Shown piece after piece: positions 46,401-52,400 of a stretch of 64,000 bases of DNA. Within the stretch, counting starts at the first letter, position 1; the number at the start of each line of letters is the position of its first letter. The position numbers were made by a program. This stretch comes from Escherichia coli (GTDB taxonomy: Bacteria; Pseudomonadota; Gammaproteobacteria; Enterobacterales; Enterobacteriaceae), in the NCBI RefSeq assembly GCF_002854065.1, contig NZ_CP024147.1, one strand, 5' to 3'.

Positions 46401-49400
46401 TCCAGCATTGCCTGTGCGGCATTCCCGGTGCTGTATGAATCGGTTACTGATATATTTTCCTGCATAGATTTAACCGGCCATCTGAGATGGTCGACAGGTT
46501 AACATAATTACAGCCATTTAGGGCCACGCGCTCAGCCCGCGGGTGAAAACGCATCTATCACCTTGTGATCGACACCTTCATTCTCCCCCGCCAGTTCGGC
46601 ACTGAGCTTCGCCATAAACTCGACTAAAAAATGCGCGTTGTGCTGCGCCAGCTGCTTGCCTCTTACGGTTTGCATGGTTTGCGGTAGCTTCAGCAACTTA
46701 GTCTGGAAATGATCCAGCGCGTAACGTTTATCATCAAGCGGGCGATGCTGTGCGAGCGGATCTTCGGCATCAAACAGCGCCACGCCCAATGCCCCTGAAA
46801 CGGCAAACACACGTGCCAGGCCAATCGCCCCCAGGGCTTCCAGCCGATCCGCATCCTGGACAATTTTAGCTTCCGTGGTTAAGGGGGCGATTTGCGCGCT
46901 GAAACTGTGAGCGGCAATGGCATGACAAACGGCCTCAATTTTCTCCGCCGGAAATTGCACGAACTCTTCACGGAGCAGGCGACGCGTCTCTTCTGCCGCC
47001 AGGATTGAAGAACGCTGCCGTTGCGGATGATTTTTCGCCAGGCTCACAATATCGTGGAAATAACAGGCTGTTAAAATCACCAGCATATCGACATCGTCAT
47101 CTGCCGCCAGCTTCTGTGCCGTAGCCCAGACGCGGCGAAAATGACACACGTCATGAGCCGCGTCCTGGTGCTGATGATGGTTTTTCAACCAGTTTTCGAA
47201 CTGTGCCTGCCAGTGTTGTAAGTCCATACGCGCTCCGTTGCCAAAGAGTCGCCACCTTAGCAGTTTTTATTCATAGCGTCTGCTACGTGCGGGACGAGGT
47301 CGGGTGTACCAGGCAATGCTGCCTAACAATGCCCCGACCAGAGCCATAAATAAAAATCCGACCAGTGCCCCTAACCACTTTTCCGCGGTAGAGCCTAAAT
47401 CGCTTTCAAATCCCGACACGGGGGCATCGGGGATCCGGCTAATCACCCAGATGTAACGCGCCATTGCCCAGACGAAATAGCCACACCATGTATAGAAAGC
47501 CCACAAAGCCAGTTTGCCGCCAGGGCTGCGAGAGAGTCTCTCTTCCATCTTTGTCGAACCGTATTCCATTTTGAGATAACCCGGAAAATTCAGACTAAGC
47601 ACTATTATGTGATAAAAGTCACATTTTTCCACATTGAATGAGCCAGTCAAGACTCAATCATTTTTTGAACAAATAGATAAATTTTGCGCAACGGCAGTGA
47701 ATACAGGAAAAATCGTTTTGAGCGATTTTATTTATCTTTGATATCGGCTTTATTAATTCATTCAATCAATATATTAGCACTGATTACAATTATACCTTTT
47801 TATTATTCTGTGTCATGATGCCTCCGTTATTAGCCTTTTATCGTCTTGTTTATATTTTTTGGGCCGGCATGATGCCGGCTTTTTTTTATGCCTTCATTAA
47901 TGTGCGCGTGATCACACCAGCCGTTTAGCGCATCAATCATTGATACCCCCTATCTTTCCGCTCAACTCATAACATATTGATATGCATTTATAATTTTCAT
48001 GAATATTTATATTTAGAATTCATAATTATGAATTATATTAAATAGATTAGAAACATTTTGAAATCTTTTAAATATATTTGTTACATGTAGTCCTTAAAAT
48101 AAAATGAACTTCATAGAATAGTATCCAAATGTGCTTTTTTTTTGGATAACGGCACTTATTGATATATTCATGAAGATTATAATCACAAGGGAATACATAA
48201 TGAAAAGAAAAGTTCTGGCAATGCTGGTCCCGGCGTTATTAGTTGCTGGCGCAGCAAATGCGGCTGAAATTTATAATAAAGATGGCAATAAAGTTGATTT
48301 CTACGGCAAGATGGTTGGCGAACGCATCTGGTCAAATACTGATGATAATAACAGCGAAAACGAAGATACCTCCTATGCTCGTTTCGGTGTTAAAGGTGAA
48401 ACCCAAATCACCAGCGAACTGACTGGTTTTGGTCAGTTTGAATACAACCTCGACGCCAGCAAGCCCGAAGGTGAAAACCAAGAAAAAACCCGTTTAACCT
48501 TCGCCGGTTTGAAATATAACGAGTTAGGATCATTTGACTATGGCCGTAACTACGGTGTTGCTTATGATGCCGCAGCTTATACCGATATGTTAGTTGAATG
48601 GGGTGGCGATTCCTGGGCTTCCGCTGACAACTTCATGAATGGTCGTACCAACGGTGTTGCAACCTACCGTAACTATGATTTCTTTGGCCTGGTTGATGGT
48701 CTTGATTTTGCGATTCAGTACCAAGGCAAAAACAGCAACCGTAGCACTAAGAAACAAAATGGTGACGGCTATGCGTTGTCTGTAGACTATAACATCAATG
48801 GTTTTGGTATCGTTGGTGCATATAGCAAATCTGATCGTACTAATGAACAAGCTAGTGACGGCTACGGTGATAACGCTGAAGTGTGGTCATTAGCAGCCAA
48901 GTATGATGCAAATAATATCTATGCAGCAATGATGTACGGTGAAACCCGCAACATGACCGTTTTGGCTAATGATCATTTTGCAAATAAAACCCAAAACTTT
49001 GAAGCTGTTGTACAGTATCAGTTCGACTTCGGTTTACGTCCGTCTTTAGGCTACGTATATTCCAAAGGCAAAGATCTTTATGCTCGTGATGGACATAAAG
49101 GTGTTGATGCTGACCGCGTAAATTATATCGAAGTTGGTACCTGGTACTACTTCAATAAGAACATGAACGTCTACACAGCATACAAATTCAACATGCTGGA
49201 TAAAGATGACGCCGCCATTACTGGCGCAGCAGCTGATGACCAGTTTGCAGTTGGTATCGTCTACCAGTTCTAATCAGCCAACGCGCCGCGGCGTGTTACT
49301 GTAAAACTGAACACTAGCCTGAGTTCGTCCCTCATCGAACTCAGGCTTTTTTATTGGCATTTCATCTCCATCTGCGGCACACGCAATTGCCGAAGCATAT

Positions 49401-52400
49401 CGATACAGCACCTTACCCTGCCCCTCCTGGCACAATAACATCAACCAGCTACTCTTCAAGCTAACACCCAAATGCATTTCTTTATAAATTAATCCGTAAC
49501 AAACACGCTTCCCATATAGAAATATTTGCAAAAATAGTGCATGAAATAAGCTTTTTCTCTACCAATCCGCGATATAAATATTCATCAGCACCACAATATT
49601 CCACAGCACTAAATCTCTCCCCGCCACCCCGTACCTCTGATAATGGTCTAAAATCATTGAGGCCACTTGCGACGACGTTACTCAATAAGGAAAATTTGGC
49701 GTGAATAATATTCAACACCAGTGCAGCATCATCATTACATACTTACACCCGCCGACTACCGCTTTCGATATATTGACTCAATTTTCCAGCCTGGTTAAAA
49801 ATAGCGACCAGCTCAGTCGCAAATATAGTGACTACCCTAACTAAGCAACAATAAGGAATACACTATGACTGTTCAAACAAGTAAAAATCCGCAGGTCGAT
49901 ATTGCTGAAGATAATGCCTTCTTCCCTTCAGAATATTCGCTTAGCCAATATACCAGTCCTGTCTCTGATCTTGATGGCGTGGACTATCCAAAACCGTATC
50001 GCGGTAAACATAAAATTCTGGTGATCGCCGCGGACGAACGTTATTTGCCAACCGATAACGGAAAACTGTTCTCGACCGGTAACCATCCGATTGAAACGTT
50101 GCTGCCGTTGTATCATCTCCATGCTGCAGGTTTCGAATTCGAAGTGGCGACCATTTCCGGTCTGATGACCAAGTTTGAATACTGGGCTATGCCGCACAAA
50201 GATGAAAAAGTAATGCCATTCTTTGAGCAGCATAAATCGTTGTTCCGCAATCCGAAGAAACTCGCGGATGTTGTCGCCAGCCTCAACGCTGATAGCGAAT
50301 ATGCAGCAATCTTTGTTCCTGGTGGTCATGGCGCACTTATTGGTTTACCTGAAAGCCAGGACGTAGCTGCCGCTTTACAGTGGGCAATCAAAAATGACCG
50401 TTTTGTTATCTCCCTTTGCCACGGCCCGGCGGCTTTTCTGGCGCTTCGCCACGGCGATAACCCACTGAATGGTTATTCCATTTGCGCATTCCCAGACGCC
50501 GCAGACAAACAAACGCCAGAGATAGGCTATATGCCGGGTCATCTCACCTGGTACTTCGGCGAAGAGCTGAAGAAAATGGGCATGAACATCATTAATGACG
50601 ACATCACCGGGCGAGTACATAAGGACCGTAAAGTTCTCACCGGCGACAGTCCTTTCGCAGCGAATGCGTTGTGTAAACTGGCGGCGCAGGAAATGCTGGC
50701 AGCTTACGCGGGTTAATCCCTGTTACGTTTGAATGTAAGCGCATAATCAATCGCAGCCGCGTTAGTACTCACGACGTGGCTGCGTTTTTCACGGTTAATT
50801 TATGGCGTACTGAAGCCCTATGTTAATTTCTTTGCGGTAACGTAATCCGGAACACATTATGCTTATTGAGATAGTGATACGTAGCACTTCCCCCATGCAA
50901 TTCGGCAATCGCTTTGACTAAAGAAAGGCCTAGTCCCTGACCTACGGAATGACGCGAATTATCTCCCCGCCAAAATCTACGGAAGAGTTTTTCAGGCTCA
51001 TTAATTTTCGTTCCAGGGCTGGCGATATCAATATTAAGAGATCCGTTGGTATCAAGAAAACTGGTTATATGAATACGCGATTTTTCTGGTGAATATCTAA
51101 TGGCATTAACAATAAGATTCGATAACATTCGTTGCAGTAAAATTTTATCCGCAAAGATTTGCTGATTGCACTCGACCTTAAAGCAAATCTCTTTCTCGTC
51201 TGAAAGATATTCAAGATAGTCCAACAAATTTTCGACTTCCTTATTGAGAGAAAGCGAGTCCAGTTTCACCAAAACATTGTTTTTATCTGCCCTGGCAAGA
51301 AACAGTATGTTCTCTGTTAACCGCGAAATATTTTCCAGCTCTTCAATGTTACCGGCAATTGTTTTTTGATATTCAGCGATACTTCTGGTTTGACTGAGCG
51401 TAACCTGATTCTGACCCAGTAATGCATTAATTGGCGTTCTAAGTTCATGAGCGAGATCGTCAGCAAACTGACTTAGACGCTCAAAATCTTTGACTAAAGC
51501 ATGATGCATTTTATTCAACGCCTGCCCAAGAGGTTTTAGTTCTCTCGGTAATGCGCTAACCTCAACAGGCTCTCGGCTATCGTTATAATTCAGCGCTTCC
51601 GTTACACCAATCAACTTTTTGATCTCTCGTAACCCCGTTTGGATTAACAGCGGACTTAATACTGAGCACAGTATAATGGCGACAATGCAAATTATAATGC
51701 TATTGATTTTATACTGTTCAAGCATGTTATGTCTGGCTGAAGCCAATTTAGCCACAGTAACCGTTAATGATGGCGAAACTTCATCAATATTAATTCGTAA
51801 AGCATCTATCTCTGTATCATTAATAATGCTTCTGTAAATACCAGCTGCACTGATTGTCTCACTAGCAGGTATGTTATTTAACATGCCATCACTGACATTT
51901 GTCCGGTTAACAATTTTATTGATGCTATCACCATGAATGATCAAGATATCCTGACTAACATCCATCATCCGGTTAAAGTATACAGGTAACGTATCTGGAT
52001 TTACCCCATCAATTAACAACTGCTTGATCTGCGCTGTCCGGTTAATGAGTGTTGTATCATCGCGCCATTTCAACTCACTTGCCAGGCCATTATAGAGAGT
52101 CCAGACAATTCCGGCGCCAGCAACAGACAGCAGCAATATAAAAAGCAAGGTTAAACGGACGGTTATAGATAATCTTTTCATTATTTTTTTACCGCTACGA
52201 ATGAATAGCCCATCCCCCGGATTGTAGCGATTAGCTTCTCAGGAAAAGGATCATCAACTTTTGCGCGGAGCCTGCGAATGGCAACATCCACCGTATTGGT
52301 ATCACTATCAAAGTTGATTCCCCAAATTTCACTCGCAATAACCGTTCTGGGTATAATTTCGCCAGCTCTGGAGGCCAGTAGCCAAAGTAACTGAAACTCC

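What the first reader, a model, noticed from the sequence alone, without database searches (positions are those of the whole stretch)
49274..49864. 590-bp non-coding gap between yedS and hchA
This is long for an E. coli intergenic region and contains only weak ORFs on the opposite strand (49274..49531 and 49482..49718, neither with recognisable motifs). It may hold the hchA promoter and regulatory sites or a remnant of a decayed gene.
Basis: seen in the sequence. Interest (0 to 1): 0.25.

Follow-up and report, generated by a model that had tools for sequence, protein, structure and literature searches.

The report
Dead stress gene beside hchA promoter
The unusually long gap between the yedS porin gene and hchA in E. 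coli is long because it still holds the eroded remains of a small universal-stress-protein gene that is intact in sister Escherichia species, plus the porin terminator and the conserved hchA promoter; it is an ordinary case of gene decay, not a new element.

Summary
The gap runs from 49274 to 49864 (591 bp) and is the longest of 53 inter-feature gaps in 50 kb of the matching annotated genome. It has three parts.

- **Terminator (49316-49352):** a strong hairpin that folds on both strands.
- **Gene relic (about 49360-49608, minus strand):** the remains of a 134-aa UspF/G-like universal stress protein gene.
  - The gene is intact and under purifying selection in four other Escherichia lineages, where the interval is about 1185 bp.
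  - It is broken in an E. marmotae-type lineage and almost wholly deleted in E. albertii.
  - None of 5,426 complete E. coli genomes has the long form.
  - E. coli keeps only the two ends of the gene (DNA profile E = 8e-10 and 3e-6 against the whole window). It lost about 150 bp internally and about 440 bp covering the start codon and upstream DNA.
  - The relic evolves at the synonymous-site rate, with frame-breaking indels.
- **hchA upstream region (about 49636-49864):** conserved across the genus, with -35 TTGACT, -10 AAAAAT, a 5'UTR start at 49810 and a Shine-Dalgarno site.

Interest is low.

The parts
49271..49273 (+). Stop codon (TAA) of the yedS/ompC-like porin gene; left edge of the gap.
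   Evidence: annotated as a porin.
49316..49352 (.). Intrinsic terminator: a 12-bp-stem hairpin (49316-49347) followed by a T-run. It folds equally well on the minus strand, where a U-rich stretch follows. It probably served both the porin gene and the former convergent usp gene.
   Evidence: Terminator scan. Folding gives -21.7 kcal/mol (z = -5.7) on the + strand and -22.2 kcal/mol (z = -5.1) on the - strand. Conserved in all Escherichia loci. In L008 the usp stop codon lies about 8 nt from the T-run.
49364..49458 (-). Relic of the 3' end of a UspF/G-like gene (ancestral nt 306-401 of 405). It carries in-frame stops and a 1-nt frameshift. The peptide trace CIDMLRQLRVP matches residues 120-130 of the intact protein.
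   Evidence: nhmmer against the whole window gives E = 8.3e-10, the top hit. The blastn match to L008 extends 100 nt into the usp coding sequence. tblastn trace.
49459..49517 (-). Degenerate middle of the relic. About 59 nt stand in for about 212 nt of the ancestral gene, a net internal loss of about 150 bp.
   Evidence: Alignment A2; nhmmer coordinates.
49518..49601 (-). Relic of the 5' end of the same gene (ancestral nt 9-93). The peptide trace NIVVLMNIYIADW...FHA aligns with NIVIPVNIFSRDDREQAFLHA.
   Evidence: nhmmer against the whole window gives E = 3.1e-6, the second-best hit and collinear with the first. tblastn residues 4-27.
49602..49635 (.). Junction of a ~440-bp deletion, relative to the long form. 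The deletion removed the usp start codon, its ribosome-binding site and the DNA upstream of it.
   Evidence: Alignment A2 columns 510-952; blastn coordinates.
49636..49864 (+). hchA upstream region, conserved across Escherichia species (about 74-87% identity). Within E. coli its proximal part is the least polymorphic stretch of the gap.
   Evidence: blastn; alignment. Nucleotide diversity (pi) is 0.02 for 49741-49864 and 0 for 49824-49873.
49773..49802 (+). Promoter-like site for hchA: -35 TTGACT (49773-49778), an 18-nt spacer, and -10 AAAAAT (49797-49802).
   Evidence: It is the only sigma-70-type match in the scan, which on its own is not above the shuffle expectation. The hexamers are invariant or nearly so across the genus. 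Its position fits a 5'UTR start at 49810.
49810..49864 (+). hchA 5' untranslated region (55 nt) with a Shine-Dalgarno AAGGA at 49853-49857. A conserved GCGAC-N7-GTCGC palindrome (49804-49820) spans the transcript start.
   Evidence: The gene-specific part of primer utr_hchA_pLac-F begins AGCTCAGTCGC. The paper says its primers hybridise at the transcription initiation site (PMC11282234). Palindrome.

Best explanation
The gap is a composite of three ordinary things.

(1) Just after the porin stop codon there is a strong hairpin terminator. It can act in both directions.

(2) Next come about 250 bp of dead gene. The ancestor of E. coli and its sister species carried a 134-codon universal-stress-protein gene of the UspF/UspG type on the minus strand. 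It was convergent with the porin gene and divergent from hchA. In the E. coli stem lineage it was inactivated. Two deletions cut it down: about 150 bp inside the gene, and about 440 bp taking the start codon and its upstream DNA. Point mutations and small indels then eroded it further. What remains has no detectable function and drifts at the neutral rate.

(3) The last ~225 bp are the working control region of hchA. It has a sigma-70/sigma-S-type promoter (-35 TTGACT, -10 AAAAAT), a transcript start at about 49810, a 55-nt leader and a ribosome-binding site.

What is shown: homology and synteny of the relic, its neutral diversity, and conservation of the promoter-proximal block. What is inferred: the order and number of the deletions, bidirectional use of the terminator, and which hexamers RNA polymerase actually uses.
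For: Intact gene in sister lineages: four non-coli Escherichia lineages have an interval of ~1065-1190 bp (1185 bp in L008) with an intact 134-aa minus-strand ORF. It matches Pfam Usp PF00582 at 28-39 bits against a cut-off of 24. Its best NCBIfam matches are UspG and UspF. Sources name it 'universal stress protein' in E. whittamii and unclassified Escherichia. Its dN/dS is 0.18-0.38.

Homology of the E. coli relic: a DNA profile of the four genes, searched against the whole 64-kb window, gives its two best hits inside the gap. They lie on the minus strand in the right order (E = 8.3e-10 and 3.1e-6). The flanks are syntenic: drpB, yedJ and the porin on one side, hchA on the other.

Decay elsewhere in the genus:
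- An E. marmotae-type locus has a stop at codon 3 and a 27-aa deletion.
- E. albertii keeps only 20-50 nt of the 3' end.
- No complete E. coli genome (0 of 5,426) has the long form, while 4,739 have the 591-bp form.

Neutral evolution of the relic in 14 E. coli strains:
- Diversity (pi) is 0.058-0.080, against 0.0725 at hchA third codon positions.
- There are seven indel sites of 1-3 bp in the gap (49346-49626), five of them inside the relic.
- Segregating sites show no codon-position bias.
- Open frames differ by strain.

Promoter. A secondary source cites Mujacic & Baneyx 2006 for H-NS silencing of sigma-70 but not sigma-S transcription (PMC3141248).
Against: At protein level the relic is not significant on its own. 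The best six-frame profile hit has E = 0.7, although it falls at the right place. The homology claim therefore rests on DNA similarity, collinearity and synteny.

The exact deletion boundaries depend on a MAFFT alignment through poorly conserved sequence.

The promoter scan found 1 site where shuffles give 1.8, so the match alone is not evidence.

I could not read the primary paper that mapped the hchA promoter. The transcript start is taken at second hand from a primer design.

I did not place the loci on a species tree, so 'lost in the E. coli stem lineage' relies on the published Escherichia phylogeny, recalled from my own knowledge.
Confidence: 0.86

Rival explanations
1. The minus-strand ORFs encode a real, young E. 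coli/Shigella-specific protein. NCBI's PGAP pipeline annotates one form as hypothetical protein WP_001325374.1 (136 aa in strain TW14425). It might be a new gene assembled from pseudogene debris.
For: A 136-aa ORF is annotated in some strains. Its protein cluster has 563 member sequences. A short stretch of one of the several open frames retains the old Usp N-terminal frame.
Against: All 66 homologues are E. coli or Shigella ORFs from this same locus. Their lengths range from 75 to 136 aa and none has a Pfam domain. Among 14 strains the longest open frame ranges from 66 to 144 codons, in different frames, because of 1-bp indels. Diversity equals the synonymous rate and shows no codon-position bias. 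The ancestral start codon and upstream DNA are deleted. No sigma-70-type promoter match was found on the minus strand in the scan of 49100-50000.
Confidence: 0.03
2. The whole 591 bp is an extended regulatory region for hchA, for example an H-NS nucleation and silencing platform, and its resemblance to usp has no functional meaning.
For: The gap is AT-rich, at 37-44% GC. hchA is cited as an example of H-NS silencing (PMC3141248). H-NS often spreads over several hundred bp (my own knowledge).
Against: Only the hchA-proximal ~125-225 bp is conserved. The distal part is as polymorphic as synonymous sites and tolerates indels. It also tolerates an ISKox3 insertion and an ISKpn26-associated deletion in single strains. 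Its sequence is explained by descent from usp. H-NS binding to the relic is not excluded, but nothing here shows that it is selected for.
Confidence: 0.07
3. The gap hides an unannotated small gene on the plus strand. It could be a small RNA, or the 47-codon ORF at 49701..49844, which has a Shine-Dalgarno-like AAGGAA 8 nt upstream of its GTG start and overlaps the hchA promoter.
For: The AAGGA element with a start codon, and an open frame of 44-55 codons, recur in E. coli, E. albertii, E. whittamii, L006 and the marmotae-type locus.
Against: Rfam finds nothing, even at E <= 1. A 2-bp deletion shifts the frame in L008 and L009. The start codon is GTA in strain D4. Segregating sites fall 1/5/4 by codon position and most change the amino acid. 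The plus strand is G-poor (GC skew -0.3 to -0.5), so two of the three stop codons are rare and long open frames are expected by chance. The mapped 5'UTR start lies inside the ORF.
Confidence: 0.04

Closest known systems
UspF/UspG class of universal stress proteins (Pfam PF00582; NCBIfam NF012000 UspG, NF011581 UspF; solved structures 3fdx, 3fh0, 4r2l)
   Same: The intact orthologue in sister Escherichia species has the Usp domain over residues 1-124, and its best named matches are UspG and UspF. It is of similar size (134 aa against 142-144 aa).
   Different: It scores far below the equivalog cut-offs: 63 against 189 bits for UspG, and 36 against 166 bits for UspF. It is therefore a separate paralogue, not UspG or UspF. 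Its C-terminus is shorter. By eye it lacks the G-x2-G-x9-G-(S/T) ATP-binding motif of that class (my own knowledge; not formally tested). Close relatives were found only in Escherichia (8 clusters). In E. coli only about 180 nt of recognisable DNA survive.
Unannotated pseudogene relics in enterobacterial intergenic regions (ordinary gene decay by deletion bias)
   Same: The relic shows collinear fragments of both gene ends, internal deletions, frameshifts, stops, a neutral substitution rate, and different stages of decay in related species.
   Different: Nothing unusual. The neighbouring yedS porin is itself a known pseudogene in K-12, so this locus is generally decaying.
hchA (Hsp31, glyoxalase III) promoter, reported as sigma-70/sigma-S dependent and H-NS silenced (Mujacic & Baneyx 2006, Mol Microbiol 60:1576)
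   Same: The conserved block directly upstream of hchA carries the -35/-10 match and the 5'UTR start used in PMC11282234.
   Different: I could not read the primary paper. Which sigma factor uses these hexamers, and where H-NS binds, was not tested here.

Membership tests
Universal stress protein family (Pfam PF00582) | A significant match to the Usp domain profile, above Pfam's gathering score. | tested here: met
   Met for the intact orthologues in L006, L007 and L008: 28.4-39 bits against a cut-off of 24. This applies to the ancestral gene, not to the E. coli sequence.
Universal stress protein family (Pfam PF00582) | The E. coli interval itself encodes a recognisable Usp domain. | tested here: not met
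   The E. coli ORFs have no Pfam hit at E <= 1. The Usp protein profile against the six-frame translation gives E = 0.7. This is expected for a broken relic, which is a pseudogene fragment and not a family member.
Pseudogene relic of the Escherichia usp paralogue | Significant DNA homology to the intact gene, in the same orientation and order. | tested here: met
   nhmmer hits at 49458..49364 (gene nt 306-401, E = 8.3e-10) and 49601..49518 (gene nt 9-93, E = 3.1e-6). They are the two best hits in the whole window.
Pseudogene relic of the Escherichia usp paralogue | The same genomic position (synteny) as the intact gene. | tested here: met
   In all lineages it lies between the porin gene and hchA, with drpB and yedJ upstream.
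Pseudogene relic of the Escherichia usp paralogue | Loss of coding constraint: disrupted frame and neutral evolution. | tested here: met
   The ancestral frame contains stops and a frameshift. Diversity (pi) is 0.058-0.080 against 0.0725 at hchA third positions. Indels of 1-3 bp occur. There is no codon-position bias.
UspG or UspF orthologue (NCBIfam equivalogs NF012000, NF011581) | A score above the curated equivalog cut-off. | tested here: not met
   62.9 against 189 bits for UspG, and 36 against 166 bits for UspF. It is a distinct paralogue.
Intrinsic (Rho-independent) terminator | A GC-rich hairpin followed by a U-run. | tested here: met
   Twelve pairs, seven of them G-C, followed by TTTTTT. 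Folding energy is -21.7 kcal/mol, z = -5.7. Actual termination was not tested.
Sigma-70/sigma-S promoter of hchA | An experimentally mapped transcript start downstream of the hexamers. | not testable with these tools
   The evidence is indirect. A published primer, said to sit at the transcription initiation site, begins at 49810. The primary mapping paper is not held.
Known RNA families (Rfam 15) | A covariance-model match. | tested here: not met
   No match at E <= 1 in 48000-51000 on either strand.

The most novel reading that the evidence does not exclude
Losing usp, together with ~440 bp of shared divergent control DNA, may have rewired hchA regulation in the E. coli lineage. The lost DNA includes a ~75-bp block with a CTGAT(A/G)ACA...TGTCATCAG palindrome. 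That block is well conserved in the lineages that keep usp or its remains (L006-L009 and the marmotae-type L055). If so, the E. coli hchA promoter would be a truncated version of an ancestral usp-hchA stress-gene pair under one common regulator.
Probability: 0.12. Interest if true: 0.4.

Novelty: new member of a known kind. Interest (0 to 1): 0.2.

Why it matters
It explains an oddly long, unannotated gap in a heavily studied genome. It also shows that the 'hypothetical proteins' which annotation pipelines sometimes call there (for example WP_001325374.1) are pseudogene debris and should not be treated as genes.

It adds one more Usp paralogue to the genus Escherichia. The paralogue is intact in some cryptic-clade lineages, broken in an E. 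marmotae-type lineage, eroded in E. coli and nearly gone in E. albertii. This gives a small, clean series of decay stages.

For anyone studying hchA regulation, it marks which part of the upstream DNA is conserved (about 49636-49864) and which is neutral filler.

Tried and rejected
- **Rfam:** a scan of 48000-51000 at E <= 1 found nothing.
- **Pfam:** none of the five ORFs in the gap matched.
- **Protein search with the fused 136-aa ORF:** it returned only the same locus in E. coli and Shigella. The ORF is therefore not a conserved protein.
- **Other genera:** I looked for usp next to hchA in Citrobacter, Enterobacter, Pluralibacter, Pantoea and Rosenbergiella. There is no usp and no porin there, so the arrangement is specific to Escherichia.
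- **Primary hchA promoter paper (PubMed 16796689):** not held.
- **Transcript-start tables:** I tried three transcriptome papers. Two had no supplementary files held and one had no hchA entry. Several other papers that mention hchA say nothing about its promoter.
- **TATAGT (49824-49829) as the -10 element:** rejected as the main promoter. It has no usable -35, and the published 5'UTR start (49810) lies upstream of it. A second, weaker start there is not excluded.
- **Plus-strand 47-codon ORF as a leader peptide:** rejected on frameshifts, a lost start codon and mostly amino-acid-changing polymorphism.
- **Prior reports of this relic:** a literature search found none.
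Full report
**Observation**

The porin ORF (yedS/ompC-like) ends at 49273 and the hchA ATG is at 49865, so the gap is 49274-49864, 591 bp. 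In strain 100416, which is identical to the window over the gap, this is the longest of 53 inter-feature gaps in 50 kb; the next are 569 and 475 bp. The 591-bp form is present in 4,739 of 5,426 complete E. coli genomes at about 94-100% identity. NCBI annotates nothing there in most of them. In some it calls a minus-strand 'hypothetical protein' whose length and frame vary: 136 aa in TW14425 and 111 aa in another frame in S1-CAM-04-C.

**What the sister species show**

I fetched hchA loci from one genome per species and compared their upstream DNA with the gap. Both ends of the gap are conserved in other Escherichia species, but the ends lie much further apart. The interval is about 1185 bp in L008 (Escherichia sp. 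E1V33), and similar in L007 (E. whittamii), L009 and L006.

The extra DNA holds an intact 134-codon minus-strand ORF.
- It matches the Usp domain PF00582 above Pfam's threshold.
- Its best named relatives are UspG and UspF, but far below their equivalog cut-offs, so it is a separate paralogue.
- Solved UspF structures align over residues 5-114.
- Public sources name it 'universal stress protein' in E. whittamii and several unclassified Escherichia.
- Pairwise dN/dS among the four copies is 0.18-0.38. The gene is therefore under purifying selection there, although less strictly than hchA at 0.03-0.12.
- Close relatives were found only in Escherichia.
- It is absent from hchA loci of other genera, which also lack the porin neighbour.

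**The E. coli gap contains the remains of that gene**

A multiple alignment places window ~49360-49470 against the 3' end of usp and ~49518-49610 against its 5' end. A DNA profile built from the four intact genes and searched against the whole 64-kb window, both strands, gives its two best hits exactly there, on the minus strand and in the right order:
- 49458..49364 against gene nt 306-401, E = 8.3e-10;
- 49601..49518 against gene nt 9-93, E = 3.1e-6.
The next hit has E = 0.012 and lies elsewhere.

Peptide traces remain: CIDMLRQLRVP against FIDMLRQFSVP, and NIVVLMNIYIADW against NIVIPVNIFSRDD. The ancestral frame, however, has stops and a frameshift, and the protein profile alone is not significant (E = 0.7).

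Relative to the long form, E. coli lacks about 150 bp inside the gene. It also lacks about 440 bp that included the start codon, the ribosome-binding site and the DNA upstream. The sum, 594 bp, equals the length difference. No complete E. coli genome has the long form; the best coverage of it is 36%.

**Other stages of decay**

An E. marmotae-type locus (L055) has a 976-bp interval. Its usp has a stop at codon 3 and an in-frame 27-residue deletion. E. albertii has a 516-bp interval that keeps only 20-50 nt of the usp 3' end, yet retains some upstream DNA that E. coli lost. Its deletion is therefore different and independent. This pattern argues that the gene was present in the common ancestor and was lost several times. 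I did not build a species tree, so the direction rests on the lesions themselves and on the published phylogeny, which I recall from my own knowledge.

**The relic is not under selection in E. coli**

I aligned fourteen strains spanning the identity range.
- Nucleotide diversity (pi) is 0.066 in the 3' relic, 0.080 in the junction and 0.058 in the 5' relic, against 0.0725 at hchA third codon positions.
- There are seven indel sites of 1-3 bp between 49346 and 49626, five of them inside the relic.
- Segregating sites show no third-position excess: 9/6/6 and 4/7/2 by codon position.
- The longest minus-strand open frame ranges from 66 to 144 codons, in different frames.
- Single strains carry an ISKox3 insertion or an ISKpn26-associated deletion here.
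Only a short stretch at the old N-terminus is still in the ancestral frame.

**The functional parts**

*Terminator.* The hairpin at 49316-49347 plus its T-run is a strong terminator on the plus strand (-21.7 kcal/mol, z = -5.7). It folds equally well on the minus strand, where it is followed by a U-rich stretch. In the long form the usp stop codon lies about 8 nt from it. Shared use by the two convergent genes is a reasonable inference, not a demonstrated fact.

*hchA control region.* The region 49636-49864 is conserved across the genus at 74-87% identity. Within E. coli, pi falls to 0.02 for 49741-49864 and to 0 for 49824-49873. The only sigma-70-type match is -35 TTGACT (49773-49778), an 18-nt spacer, and -10 AAAAAT (49797-49802). 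By itself this match is no better than chance, but two things support it. The hexamers are conserved. They also sit correctly upstream of 49810, where the native hchA 5'UTR begins in a published construct whose primers were placed at the transcription initiation site (PMC11282234). The leader is 55 nt, with AAGGA at 49853-49857. A conserved GCGAC-N7-GTCGC palindrome spans the start; its role is unknown.

*Regulation.* A secondary source cites Mujacic & Baneyx 2006 for H-NS silencing of sigma-70 but not sigma-S transcription (PMC3141248). I could not read the primary paper.

**Alternatives considered**

- A real young protein on the minus strand. Rejected on strain-to-strain frame changes, neutral diversity, loss of the start region and restriction to this one locus.
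- A purely regulatory 591-bp region. Only the proximal part is conserved.
- A plus-strand small gene. Rfam is empty. The 47-codon ORF at 49701..49844 is frameshifted in L008 and L009, has lost its start codon in strain D4, and varies mostly by amino-acid changes. The G-poor plus strand makes stop codons rare, which explains the open frame.

**Verdict**

The finding is real and is now explained: terminator, Usp pseudogene relic and hchA promoter. It is an unannotated relic of a known gene family and, as far as one literature search shows, has not been reported. It is ordinary gene decay and of low general interest.

Noticed in passing
window 49124-49273 (3' end of the porin gene, ORF 48131/48200..49273): The porin's 3' end is hypervariable among E. 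coli strains. Diversity (pi) is 0.22-0.32, against 0.07 at hchA synonymous-type sites, and there are in-frame indels. Porin length varies from 352 to 395 aa, and the gene is a pseudogene in MG1655 and in strain 132. This looks like allelic replacement or diversifying selection on a surface protein.
   Followed up: partly
L006-L009 and L055, downstream of hchA (e.g. L008 4853-7452): The lineages that keep usp or its remains lack hprS and hprR next to hchA. Instead they have a 352-361-aa gene with a weak Glyco_transf_9 match, followed by tRNA genes. E. coli and E. albertii, which both lost usp, have hprRS there.
   Followed up: partly
L008 about 3455-3530 (absent from the window): A ~75-bp block in the usp-hchA intergenic DNA is nearly identical among L006-L009, even though L006 is otherwise diverged, and is recognisable with several substitutions in L055. 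It contains the palindrome CTGAT(A/G)ACA...TGTCATCAG. E. coli and E. albertii lack it. It could be an operator for the divergent gene pair.
   Followed up: no
window 49701-49844 (+): A 47-codon ORF overlaps the hchA promoter. Its AAGGA element and GTG/ATG start are conserved across the genus. It is frameshifted in L008 and L009, its start is GTA in strain D4, and its polymorphism mostly changes amino acids. I judged it non-coding.
   Followed up: yes
window about 47650-48130 (between drpB and the porin gene): The rseX small RNA (RF01401) lies at this position in L006 and L008 and, according to PMC7648144, in K-12. Strain 100416, identical to the window over the gap, has an IS1B between drpB and the porin gene. 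I did not check whether the window has it too.
   Followed up: no
window 49865-49925 (start of the hchA coding sequence): The acidic residues Glu15 and Asp16 at the HchA N-terminus make its translation dependent on the ABC-F protein EttA (PMC11282234). This is a layer of control just downstream of the gap.
   Followed up: no
L002 3591-4442; L053 5186-7010; L054 1213-2433: Individual strains show further decay at this locus: an internal stop in hchA (TW14425), ISKpn26 replacing the gap and the hchA 5' end (TUM2820), and ISKox3 inserted just after the porin gene (ET979).
   Followed up: partly
L017 and L039 (contigs of a 'Collinsella sp.' metagenome-assembled genome, MAG): Two short contigs binned as Collinsella carry hchA at 98-99% protein identity to E. 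coli, and one also carries the E. coli form of the gap at 95% identity. This is almost certainly E. coli contamination of the bin.
   Followed up: no
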